From a virus (lineage: Duplodnaviria; Heunggongvirae; Uroviricota; Caudoviricetes): a DNA stretch of 7,797 nt. Below, piece by piece: positions 4,676 through 5,591 of this stretch (position 1 is its first letter; every line of letters starts with the position of its first letter). Location of the stretch: IMG/VR virus record IMGVR_UViG_2778261360_000013, positions 1-7,797 of that record; one strand, given 5' to 3'. The notes beneath the pieces were generated by a model. The model was not told the DNA's origin. It did not search any database and saw nothing but the letters and a program-made list of their open reading frames with translations. The translations under genes and the position numbers were made by a program.

Positions 4676-4705
4676 TTGACGGCATTGAATTGCTTTTGTT
4701 ATGAG
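4676..4705 (+). promoter_or_regulatory. Putative sigma70 promoter for the membrane two-gene module
   Basis: TTGACG (4676..4681), 18-nt spacer, then TGtTATGAG (extended -10-like, hexamer 4700..4705), about 38 nt upstream of the ATG at 4743. Motif match only. Confidence 0.3.
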
Positions 4706-4742
4706 TTGTAAGCCAATGTTATCATCTTGTATTGGGGTGGTT

Positions 4743-5219
4743 ATGAAGGATGGTGCGCTGCTCAGGAGTTCTTCACTTTTTATTGCCTACATGGGATGCC
4801 TTGGATGGGGGAGTGCTTATTTCTATGGATGGGGTACTTCTTTTTACTACGGCTTCCCATGGTGGATTGTAGGTGCAGGTGTTGATGATGTTGCCAGAAG
4901 TTTATTTTTTGCAGTTATCGTCATTGCTATATTTCTTATCGGTTGGGGTATTGGTGTTGTATTCTTTTTCGCAGTGAAAAGAAAACATTCTATGCAAGAG
5001 CTAAATGTATTTCGCCTTTATTTTGCTGTGGAATTATTGTTTGTGCCGGCAATTATTGAGTTTTCTATATTGAGACAGAAGATTCAGGTACCTCTTTTGC
5101 TACTGTCAGCAGCGATTGCGCTGGCGGTTACAATTTCGATAAGATCTTATGGGCGATTTTTATCGGTATCATGCTTCTATGATAAGCCATTTATAAAAAA
5201 CATTTTTTTGAGATTGTGA
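4743..5219 (+). CDS. Hypothetical polytopic inner-membrane protein (~158 aa, three or more predicted TM helices, Gly/Trp/Tyr/Phe-rich N-terminal segment); unassigned family
   Basis: Long plus-strand ORF with no competing minus-strand ORF. Hydrophobic stretches LFFAVIVIAIFLIGWGIGVVFFFAV, LYFAVELLFVPAIIEFSIL and VPLLLLSAAIALAVTISI. Visibly AT-rich against the flanking phage genes. The stop is coupled to the next ORF (TGATG). Start is ambiguous (ATG at 4701, 4716 or 4743); 4743 is preferred because GGGGTGG precedes it and 4701 lies in the putative -10. Confidence 0.6.
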   Translation: MKDGALLRSSSLFIAYMGCLGWGSAYFYGWGTSFYYGFPWWIVGAGVDDVARSLFFAVIVIAIFLIGWGIGVVFFFAVKRKHSMQELNVFRLYFAVELLFVPAIIEFSILRQKIQVPLLLLSAAIALAVTISIRSYGRFLSVSCFYDKPFIKNIFLRL

Positions 5220-5458
5220 TGATTGCTTTTGTGGCATATTTCTGGCTTTTTTCATTTCTGACAGGATATTACAAACCACAGTTTAAGAAAGAATATGAAA
5301 TGATTAATTATAATGATGGTTGGTATTATGTTCTTGCTCGTTATGATAATTGTCTGGTTTTGTCTACTTCTTTCAATGCAGGTAGTAAAAGGTTTGTCAT
5401 TTATCAATCAGCACAAGATAAGAATCTTCAGGTTGATATTGTAAGGACCAGAATTTAA
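5219..5458 (+). CDS. Hypothetical small membrane-anchored protein (79 aa; N-terminal TM helix plus ~55-aa soluble domain); unassigned family
   Basis: ATG at 5219 overlaps the TGA of the upstream ORF by 1 nt (a GTG at 5216 is also in frame). N-terminal MIAFVAYFWLFSFLTGYY is hydrophobic and the rest is polar. Same AT-rich composition as the upstream gene. Confidence 0.6.
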   Translation: MIAFVAYFWLFSFLTGYYKPQFKKEYEMINYNDGWYYVLARYDNCLVLSTSFNAGSKRFVIYQSAQDKNLQVDIVRTRI

Positions 5459-5591
5459 TTGGCTGCATAAATAATATTTTAAGTTGCAAGTTGGCTATTC
5501 GTAGGAATAGAACCTTAGGCATGCTGAATGCGTTTTCTGAACATTGTTTTATAAACTGTGTCTGCTTGCTGTTGTGATCCTGCTTTTAGTG

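What the first reader, a model, noticed from the sequence alone, without database searches (positions are those of the whole stretch)
4676..5460. Unassigned, AT-rich two-gene membrane module in the Q-to-lysis slot: candidate novel prophage moron (defence, exclusion or toxin-like)
Between the Q/pR' region and the holin remnant lie two translationally coupled ORFs (TGA/ATG overlap at 5217..5221). The first encodes a polytopic membrane protein with an unusual aromatic/glycine-rich N-terminal segment (GWGSAYFYGWGTSFYYGFPWW); the second encodes a single-TM protein with a ~55-aa soluble domain. I recognise neither. The segment is visibly more AT-rich than the flanking lambda-like genes and has its own promoter-like motif, and no ORF competes on the other strand. 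This is the position where Stx phages carry stx and where lambdoid prophages often carry host-benefit cargo. The function is a hypothesis: superinfection exclusion, abortive infection, a membrane toxin with partner, or a lysis-timing accessory.
Basis: partly seen in the sequence, partly recalled or inferred. Interest (0 to 1): 0.8.

Follow-up and report, generated by a model that had tools for sequence, protein, structure and literature searches.

The report
Frameshifted prophage membrane-protein gene, not two
The two "coupled" genes are one well-conserved prophage membrane-protein gene, of a catalogued family with unknown function that is also found in phage 434 and as Salmonella STM1630, and here it is broken by the loss of a single A in a run of seven.

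Summary
The ORFs, coordinates, AT-richness (GC 0.36 against 0.50 in Q) and position between Q and the holin remnant are all real. The "translationally coupled two-gene module" is not. The window differs from the intact allele by one base, A6 at 5195-5200 instead of A7. That splits a single 238-aa ORF (start ATG 4743) into the two reported pieces. NCBI's PGAP pipeline annotates identical copies as one "frameshifted" pseudogene. All homologs in more than seven genera are single proteins of about 237 aa, under strong purifying selection in both halves (dN/dS 0.05-0.09). The family is already catalogued as PF27470 "TfpB", PGAP "STM1630 family protein" and phrog_1521. The intact protein is 100% identical to CPT_434_68 of phage 434. 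It is a five-helix membrane protein with a small C-terminal beta-domain. It has no fold match in the PDB and no hit to known defence systems. In lambdoid phages it is the first gene after Q, with three different Q families, and a DUF3927 gene follows it. Paralogs sit beside the LT enterotoxin genes in ETEC and beside sseJ in Salmonella. Distant relatives are solitary chromosomal genes. The likeliest role is stand-alone envelope cargo (a moron), inactivated in this window. The molecular function is still unknown.

The parts
4743..5219 (+). 5' portion of the pseudogene. It encodes residues 1-152 of the 238-aa protein (TM helices 1-4, including the aromatic/Gly motif), then 6 out-of-frame codons and a TGA stop.
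   Evidence: M10 invariant start; helices
5195..5200 (+). A6 homopolymer, the site of the 1-nt deletion. The intact allele has A7, followed by C-A-T7.
   Evidence: An exact A7 probe matches 669 of 682 genomes and an exact A6 probe matches 16 of 682
5219..5458 (+). 3' portion of the pseudogene. It encodes TM helix 5 plus the 5-strand beta-domain of about 55 aa, in the original reading frame. The ATG at 5219 is the near-invariant internal Met169 of the intact protein.
   Evidence: It matches phrog_3985
4583..4742 (+). Conserved 5' leader that travels with the gene behind different Q genes. It begins at a degenerate copy (4583-4603) of the hairpin annotated as a terminator in phage 434.
   Evidence: alignment; the 434 hairpin folds at -13.3 kcal/mol (z -3.0), the window version at -4.6 (z -0.14)
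4676..4705 (+). Promoter-like motif: TTGACG, an 18-nt spacer, then TGtTATGAG. It is conserved, but it lacks the T at position 6 of the -10 hexamer and fails the consensus scan.
   Evidence: It is retained in L021, which has no Q upstream
3840..4463 (+). Q antiterminator (PF03589 type), directly upstream.
5544..5702 (+). DUF3927 / TciB-like small membrane protein. It is the fixed downstream neighbour (+89 nt) in the E. coli prophage copies.
6279..6590 (+). Holin remnant. Only residues 20-60 match the P21-type holin. It marks the downstream end of the Q-to-lysis slot.

Best explanation
Window 4743-5458 is one gene, not two. It is a frameshifted, probably inactive, copy of a stand-alone inner-membrane protein of the family catalogued as PF27470 'TfpB', PGAP 'STM1630 family' and phrog_1521.

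Shown:
- Loss of one A from an A7 run (5195-5200) shifts the frame. The first product stops at 5217-5219, and the rest of the gene reads as a separate 79/80-aa ORF.
- The intact 238-aa protein has five TM helices, with an invariant aromatic/Gly motif in helix 1 and an ARSL motif, followed by a C-terminal beta-domain of about 55 aa.
- It is under strong purifying selection.
- In lambdoid phages, including phage 434, it is the first gene downstream of Q.

Inferred:
- The topology is N-terminus in the cytoplasm and beta-domain in the periplasm, by the positive-inside rule.
- In an active phage the gene is transcribed with the late operon from pR' under Q antitermination. In lysogens and remnants it is transcribed at low level from read-through or from the conserved weak promoter-like motif, which would place the transcription start near 4712 and fits the ATG 4743 start.
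- It acts alone at the envelope as lysogenic-conversion cargo (a moron) that affects behaviour in the animal host, rather than as a toxin-partner pair or lysis factor. My confidence in this functional part is only about 0.35.
- In this window, a decayed prophage remnant, the gene has been lost to homopolymer slippage.
For: Single gene:
- The only difference from the intact allele is the 1-nt deletion.
- PGAP calls it 'frameshifted' in five backbones.
- 27 homologs from Escherichia, Salmonella, Citrobacter, Cronobacter, Klebsiella, Enterobacter and Yersinia read through the site as proteins of about 237 aa.
- dN/dS is 0.05-0.09 in both halves.
- PHROGs holds the full-length family plus two 'half' families.

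Rarity of the broken allele: A6 in 16 of 682 genomes against A7 in 669 of 682. All 83 other fetched loci are intact.

Family identity: the PF27470 label on all homologs, the 'STM1630 family protein' name, and Salmonella member P0075 lying next to sseJ.

Structure: AF2 mean pLDDT 83.6 and pTM 0.77, showing 5 helices and 5 strands.

Late-operon position: 80 viral contigs; phages 434 and 2B8; Yersinia, PF06530 Q; PF06323 Q.

Stand-alone cargo:
- Solitary chromosomal genes in Pasteurellaceae and Neisseriaceae.
- Retained alone in a minimal remnant beside bioA/bioB with omega 0.09.
- A paralog next to eltAB and STb on ETEC contigs.
- STM1630 is H-NS-bound, expressed in SPI-2-inducing medium and in macrophages, and has infection phenotypes (PMC6785131 S1 Text, PMC2639726).
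- GC is 0.36 against 0.50 in Q.
Against: - No molecular function is known for any member.
- The STM1630 phenotypes are subtle and partly inconsistent. The hypermotility seen in a screen is not among the phenotypes reproduced with clean deletions. A clean deletion has no growth defect.
- The promoter-like motif fails the consensus scan, and promoter-like sites are not enriched.
- The topology rests on the positive-inside rule only.
- The TGATG overlap could in principle allow re-initiation, so a split but functional protein is not excluded.
- A homopolymer length error in the window's source assembly cannot be excluded for this particular copy.
Confidence: 0.85

Rival explanations
1. The intact family protein is a superinfection-exclusion or anti-phage membrane protein that blocks DNA entry at the inner membrane. 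The window carries a dead copy of it.
For: It is a polytopic inner-membrane protein carried by temperate phages at a cargo slot. Some distant members lie in variable regions, beside an AAA ATPase pair or at the end of a P2-like prophage. From my own knowledge, several exclusion proteins (P22 SieA, T4 Imm, HK97 gp15) are small inner-membrane proteins with no recognisable domains.
Against: No PADLOC hit for any of 44 members beyond noise. Orthologs sit among housekeeping genes in Pasteurellaceae and Neisseriaceae. STM1630 is conserved across Salmonella subspecies and is regulated with SPI-2 and host conditions rather than with phage. The gene lies downstream of pR', so in an intact prophage it is not obviously expressed in the lysogen.
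Confidence: 0.2
2. The protein is a late-gene accessory of the lytic cycle, for example in lysis timing, membrane preparation or release. Phages keep it because it is the first gene of the late transcript.
For: It has a fixed position directly after Q and its terminator and before the holin, in phage 434, phage 2B8 and about 80 viral contigs, behind three different Q families.
Against: Homologs function in genomes with no phage around them. The gene is retained under purifying selection in a remnant that has lost Q and all lysis genes. From my own knowledge, lambda lacks this gene, and in the phage 434 record it lies inside a segment annotated as non-homologous to the 434B variant, so it is dispensable. 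It has no similarity to holin or antiholin families.
Confidence: 0.1
3. One reading: two real, translationally coupled genes forming a membrane module, such as a toxin with a partner.
For: The TGATG overlap exists. The two halves are called as separate proteins in some annotations and form their own PHROG families. The A6 allele recurs in several backbones.
Against: It is one nucleotide away from a single ORF that is the norm in 669 of 682 genomes and in every other genus. The first ORF ends in 6 out-of-frame codons. There is no Shine-Dalgarno sequence before 5216/5219. PGAP calls it a pseudogene.
Confidence: 0.04
4. The A7 tract is a slippage-prone on/off switch (phase variation), or a site of transcriptional or translational frameshifting, so the A6 copy is an 'off' state or is still partly expressed.
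For: A6 occurs on at least two haplotypes and in at least four prophage backbones, and one copy has a second indel. The tract is A7-C-A-T7.
Against: Only 16 of 682 genomes carry A6. From my own knowledge, runs of 6-7 are short for efficient phase variation or RNA polymerase slippage. The Lys-Lys codons are not conserved in homologs, so the tract is not a family feature. No stimulatory structure was sought or found.
Confidence: 0.05
5. The missing A is a sequencing or assembly error at a homopolymer, and the gene in the source strain is intact.
For: From my own knowledge, single-base homopolymer indels are the commonest long-read assembly error. The rest of the 1080-bp region is identical to intact alleles.
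Against: The same A6 allele is in 16 independent complete genomes. Its exact 167-aa and 79-aa products are on 289 and 411 contigs from many projects.
Confidence: 0.08

Closest known systems
CPT_434_68 'putative membrane protein' of Escherichia phage 434 (OL657226.1); also gp58 of phage 2B8
   Same: 100% (phage 434) and 98% (phage 2B8) protein identity to the intact allele. Both occupy the same slot: Q, terminator, this gene, TciB/DUF3927, SASA esterase, holin.
   Different: The phage copies are intact (A7) and lie behind a Q82-like Q with a good terminator hairpin. The window copy is frameshifted, lies behind a PF03589-type Q, and has a degenerate hairpin.
STM1630 of Salmonella Typhimurium (PGAP 'STM1630 family protein'; Pfam PF27470 'TfpB')
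   Same: 46-48% identity over the full length, with the same length, motifs and architecture. It is AT-rich horizontally acquired cargo next to T3SS effector genes (steB and sseJ there, NleG and EspJ here).
   Different: STM1630 is not in a prophage, and its promoter region is unrelated. It is intact and expressed in strain 4/74. The origin of the Pfam name 'TfpB' could not be traced. The literature hits for TfpB concern an unrelated type IV pilus ATPase.
ORF divergently adjacent to eltA/eltB (heat-labile enterotoxin) on ETEC contigs (P0044)
   Same: 59% identity, same family, again travelling with toxin cargo and IS elements.
   Different: It is in an IS-flanked toxin island on contigs that look plasmid-derived, with no Q or lysis genes nearby.
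Phage superinfection-exclusion membrane proteins (P22 SieA, T4 Imm, HK97 gp15): a functional analogy only, recalled from memory
   Same: They are small polytopic inner-membrane proteins encoded as accessory cargo by phages, without enzymatic motifs.
   Different: No sequence or fold similarity was detected. This family also occurs as a chromosomal housekeeping-neighbourhood gene far from phages.

Membership tests
PF27470 'TfpB' / PGAP 'STM1630 family' / phrog_1521 | Significant full-length match to the family profile | tested here: met
   The intact allele matches phrog_1521 at E 1.9e-154 over residues 26-247. The window halves match phrog_14371 and phrog_3985. The PF27470 label is precomputed for the near-identical protein P0001 and all 104 homologs. 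The PF27470 HMM itself is absent from the local Pfam copy, so it was not run directly.
PF27470 'TfpB' / PGAP 'STM1630 family' / phrog_1521 | One continuous polypeptide of about 236-250 aa | tested here: not met
   The window copy is split by a 1-nt deletion. It is therefore a pseudogene member, as PGAP annotates identical copies.
PF27470 'TfpB' / PGAP 'STM1630 family' / phrog_1521 | N-terminal AYxYGWG...G(F/Y)PWW motif and ARSL motif, then more TM helices and a C-terminal YY(V/I)L...(L/I)LS beta-domain | tested here: met
   All motifs are encoded in the window. The architecture was modelled at pLDDT 83.6.
Two-gene membrane toxin/partner or toxin-antitoxin module | Two separate genes conserved as a pair across genomes | tested here: not met
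   Homologs are single ORFs everywhere. The pair exists only as the A6 frameshift allele.
Holin / antiholin | Match to a holin family, and position at the head of the lysis cassette next to the endolysin | tested here: not met
   No holin family hit in Pfam or PHROGs. The real holin lies 0.9-2.8 kb downstream in intact relatives.
Known anti-phage defence systems (PADLOC-DB v2) | Match to any defence-protein model | tested here: not met
   No hit for the protein. Among 44 family members there were only scattered noise-level hits, E 0.007 or worse.
Moron (phage lysogenic-conversion cargo) | Base composition distinct from the flanking phage genes, and presence/absence polymorphism among related phages | tested here: met
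   GC 0.363 against 0.495. The gene lies within the segment annotated as non-homologous to 434B in phage 434. It is linked to three different Q families.
Moron (phage lysogenic-conversion cargo) | Own promoter and terminator | tested here: inconclusive
   A conserved TTGACG-18-TGtTATGAG motif is present, but it fails the consensus scan, promoter-like sites are not enriched, and no terminator was found.
Moron (phage lysogenic-conversion cargo) | Expression from the repressed prophage | not testable with these tools
   This needs RNA-seq or 5'-RACE in a lysogen. The only expression data are for Salmonella STM1630, which has an unrelated promoter.

The most novel reading that the evidence does not exclude
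The intact family could be a new kind of stand-alone envelope protein with a fold unlike any solved structure. Lambdoid phages, ETEC toxin islands and Salmonella effector islets would carry it to change host interaction or phage susceptibility. In the E. coli allele, the A7 tract would act as a slippage switch, so that the A6 copies, including this window, are reversible 'off' states rather than dead genes.
Probability: 0.07. Interest if true: 0.6.

Novelty: already known. Interest (0 to 1): 0.25.

Why it matters
For this window it matters little. The locus is a pseudogene copy of a sequence already present and annotated in hundreds of genomes.

The family is a reasonable target for someone else:
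- It is a strongly constrained membrane protein with no solved-structure relative.
- It occupies the first position of the late operon in a textbook phage (434).
- It repeatedly travels with toxins and T3SS effectors: LT/STb in ETEC, sseJ in Salmonella, NleG/EspJ here.
- Its function is still unknown, despite hints of infection phenotypes for STM1630.

The case also shows that a TGA/ATG "coupling" next to a homopolymer should be checked against intact alleles before being read as an operon.

Tried and rejected
- **Local family libraries:** Pfam, NCBIfam and PADLOC scans of both halves and of the intact protein gave nothing. Scans of all 44 family members gave only noise.
- **Origin of the name 'TfpB':** literature hits concern a type IV pilus ATPase or pilus classes, which are unrelated. 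I checked distant members for pilin loci and found none. My recollection of a Moraxella bovis tfpB ORF as the source of the name remains unverified.
- **Other literature searches:** searches for WP_001302581, the phage 434 genome paper and TciB gave nothing useful.
- **Intrinsic terminator:** none was found between Q and the gene in the window.
- **DUF3927 as an obligate partner:** rejected, because it is absent from the Salmonella, Klebsiella, ETEC and distant loci.
- **Species-representative genome scan:** it returned only 6 loci, two of them E. coli-like contigs inside metagenome-assembled genomes labelled Veillonella and Lachnospiraceae, probably binning contamination.

Full report
**1. 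What is in the sequence**

The + strand carries ORFs at 4701-5219 (172 aa) and 5216-5458 (80 aa). They overlap in the sequence TGATG at 5217-5221. The segment is AT-rich: GC is 0.363 for the ORF against 0.495 for the upstream Q gene. Only two short ORFs (51 and 41 aa) lie on the opposite strand. Upstream is a PF03589 Q antiterminator (3840-4463). Downstream are a DUF3927 gene (5544-5702), a holin remnant (6279-6590, where only residues 20-60 match the P21-type holin) and an NleG effector gene (6685-7215).

**2. The two ORFs are one gene with a frameshift**

The 1080-bp region occurs in 1285 of 5426 complete E. coli genomes, and 682 of them cover at least 80% of it. Most 99.9% matches are one base longer than the query. 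In a 100% identical copy (NZ_CP148323), NCBI's PGAP annotation pipeline annotates a single CDS marked "hypothetical protein, frameshifted". In O26:H11 strain 11368 the same locus is one intact 247-aa CDS, WP_001302581.1.

A base-by-base comparison shows a single difference. The window has A6 at 5195-5200 where the intact allele has A7. Restoring the A joins the two ORFs. The first ORF's last six codons (NIFLRL) are out of frame. The ATG at 5219 is the near-invariant internal Met169 of the intact protein.

An alignment of 27 homologs from Escherichia, Salmonella, Citrobacter, Cronobacter, Klebsiella, Enterobacter and Yersinia reads straight through the site as proteins of about 237 aa. It also fixes the start at the invariant M10, which is ATG 4743, preceded by GGGGTGG. 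Pairwise dN/dS is 0.05-0.09 in both the N-terminal and C-terminal parts.

**3. How common is the broken allele**

| Measure | Intact (A7) | Frameshifted (A6) |
|---|---|---|
| Exact 80-nt probe match, of 682 carrier genomes | 669 | 16 |
| Contigs carrying the exact protein | ≥1000 (capped), plus 918 under a shorter start call | 289 (167-aa product), 411 (79-aa product) |

A6 occurs behind both Q types, with or without the SASA esterase, and on two haplotypes (with or without the SNP C528T). One copy has a further indel. So the A7 tract is a recurrent slippage site, or the allele spreads by recombination. PGAP calls every copy a pseudogene. An assembly error in this particular window cannot be excluded, but the allele itself is real.

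**4. What the gene is**

The local Pfam, NCBIfam and PADLOC libraries give no hit. The family is catalogued in three other places:
- PHROGs has the full-length family phrog_1521 (E 1.9e-154, function unknown). It also has separate families for the two frameshift halves.
- All 104 homologs carry the precomputed Pfam label PF27470, named "TfpB".
- Recent PGAP annotation names the ortholog in the closest whole-window relative "STM1630 family protein".

The intact protein is 100% identical to CPT_434_68 of phage 434 and 98% identical to gp58 of phage 2B8. The Salmonella member P0075 (46% identity) lies next to a Sif/GDSL-lipase gene (sseJ), so it is STM1630.

I could not trace the origin of the name "TfpB". 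Literature hits refer to an unrelated type IV pilus ATPase, and no family member examined lies in a pilin locus.

**5. Anatomy of the protein**

With a 44-sequence alignment spanning both branches of the family, AlphaFold2 gives a confident model (mean pLDDT 83.6, pTM 0.77). It has helices at 9-45, 56-88, 96-120, 125-146 and 158-190, then five beta-strands at 196-241. Hydropathy analysis agrees for four of the helices. The first helix is the aromatic/Gly-rich segment, with 12 aromatic residues and 7 Gly in 31 residues.

Residues invariant across both branches are S20, Y35, Y37, W39, W49, A60, R61, F176, G184 and F227. The distribution of Lys and Arg suggests the N-terminus is cytoplasmic and the beta-domain periplasmic. 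This is an inference from the positive-inside rule.

The frameshift separates helices 1-4 from helix 5 and the beta-domain.

**6. Genomic context**

| Setting | Neighbours |
|---|---|
| 80 IMG/VR viral contigs; phages 434 and 2B8 | 214-283 nt after a Q gene (PF03589 type or Q82-like), DUF3927 at exactly +89 nt, then a minus-strand ORF or a SASA esterase, then holin and endolysin |
| Yersinia | After NinG and a PF06530-type Q |
| E. albertii | After a truncated PF06323-type Q |
| ETEC contigs (59% paralog, >900 contigs) | Divergent from eltA/eltB, near STb, flanked by IS elements |
| Klebsiella | Similar STb-containing island |
| Salmonella (STM1630) | Between steB and sseJ |
| Escherichia sp. 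remnant beside bioA/bioB | Only this gene and a DUF1737 gene remain; no Q; ω = 0.09 |
| Pasteurellaceae and Neisseriaceae | Solitary gene among housekeeping genes |
| More divergent members | End of a P2-like prophage beside SRAP and umuDC; an integrase/resolvase islet |

DNA shared between the two main Q contexts begins about 160 nt upstream of the start codon. It starts at the hairpin annotated as a terminator in phage 434 (−13.3 kcal/mol, z −3.0). The window's version of that hairpin is degenerate (−4.6 kcal/mol, z −0.14).

The whole family is small, with 72 representative clusters among 1.84 billion. It is confined to animal-associated Gram-negative bacteria. DUF3927 is a neighbour only in the E. 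coli prophage copies, so the protein needs no conserved partner.

**7. Expression**

The consensus scan finds no terminator, and promoter-like sites are not enriched (3 found against 4.3 expected). It fails the scan because the −10 hexamer lacks its final T. It is nonetheless conserved in both Q contexts and in the Q-less remnant. If used, it would start transcription near 4712. That would exclude the ATGs at 4701 and 4716 and fit the invariant ATG 4743. This is an inference, not evidence of activity.

Literature on STM1630 reports the following:
- The function is unknown, and the gene is H-NS-bound.
- It is expressed in SPI-2-inducing medium and in macrophages in strain 4/74, and silenced by −10 SNPs in ST313.
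- Signature-tagged mutants were attenuated in calves and chickens, as cited in the supplement.
- A clean deletion has no growth defect, but shows higher intramacrophage fold-replication in 4/74 (PMC6785131 S1 Text).
- It is listed with genes co-regulated with SPI-2 (PMC2639726).
- Hypermotility was seen in one screen (PMC4219756), but STM1630 is not among the phenotypes reproduced with clean deletions (PMC4534456).

**8. Explanation and rivals**

*Best explanation.* This is one frameshifted, probably inactive, copy of a stand-alone inner-membrane cargo protein. My confidence in that identity is about 0.85-0.9. For function, I favour an envelope-acting lysogenic-conversion factor that affects behaviour in the animal host (about 0.35). 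It would be transcribed with the late operon in active phages, and at low level from read-through or its own weak promoter in lysogens and remnants.

*Rivals.*

| Rival | Confidence |
|---|---|
| Superinfection exclusion or defence | 0.2 |
| Lytic accessory | 0.1 |
| Assembly error at the homopolymer | 0.08 |
| Slippage switch or recoding at the A tract | 0.05 |
| A genuine two-gene module | 0.04 |

**9. Novelty and score**

The sequence and the family are already in the databases, and the frameshift is already flagged by PGAP, so I rate novelty as "already known". The window copy is a decayed instance inside a decayed prophage: the integrase is truncated by an IS3-family element, the holin is truncated, and the lysis genes are replaced by effector genes. 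I give it an interest of 0.25. The residual interest belongs to the uncharacterised family, not to this locus.

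Noticed in passing
window 1-2146: A tyrosine integrase gene (minus strand, 1-978) is truncated by an IS3-family element (orfA/orfB, about 942-2146; PGAP notes a programmed frameshift in the relative). The element also removed most of the nin region, leaving only a methyltransferase fragment. 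The prophage is a remnant sitting between mdtA and yegL in the closest relative.
   Followed up: partly
window 6279-7797: The holin is truncated (only residues 20-60 match PF04971). The lysis cassette is replaced by T3SS effector cargo: NleG (6685-7215) and an unassigned ORF (7387-7797, no Pfam or PHROG hit). An EspJ gene lies just beyond in the closest relative (L005). The prophage remnant has been turned into an effector islet.
   Followed up: partly
window 4583-4603 versus L003 3865-3890: The hairpin annotated as a terminator after Q in phage 434 (-13.3 kcal/mol, z -3.0) is degenerate in the window's PF03589-type Q lineage (-4.6 kcal/mol, z -0.14). No other terminator-like site lies between Q and the gene. 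Where the late terminator of this Q type lies is unclear.
   Followed up: partly
window 5544-5702: A DUF3927 / 'TciB-like' 52-aa membrane protein gene sits at an invariant +89 nt after the gene in all E. coli prophage copies, but is absent from the Salmonella, ETEC, Klebsiella and distant loci. Its function is unknown, and only two papers in the library mention DUF3927.
   Followed up: partly
window 5783-6181 (minus strand): PGAP annotates a 132-aa minus-strand ORF here (WP_033816266.1) with no family hit. Across loci it alternates with the SASA-family esterase gene, and fragments of it overlap the esterase start. It may be a deletion scar rather than a gene.
   Followed up: no
L107-L110 (ETEC contigs), gene at 6001-6714: A 59%-identity paralog lies about 870 nt from eltA, divergently oriented, in an IS-flanked island that also carries STb. 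It is present on more than 900 contigs. This may be a relic of a prophage Q-to-toxin-to-lysis region in the ancestry of the LT locus.
   Followed up: no
L013-L015 and L115-L116: In the most divergent sub-branch the homolog directly follows an SRAP (YedK-like) gene in two different contexts. One of them is the cargo end of a P2-like prophage next to umuDC.
   Followed up: no
L112 (NZ_CP047378), CDS at 3059-3802: This A6 copy carries a second indel (+A at CDS position 623) that restores the frame for the last 40 or so codons. It is a sign of ongoing decay, or of repeated homopolymer slippage, in this gene.
   Followed up: partly
L016, L017: Contigs binned into metagenome-assembled genomes labelled Veillonella and Lachnospiraceae carry this E. 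coli prophage segment at 97-100% protein identity. This is almost certainly binning contamination.
   Followed up: no
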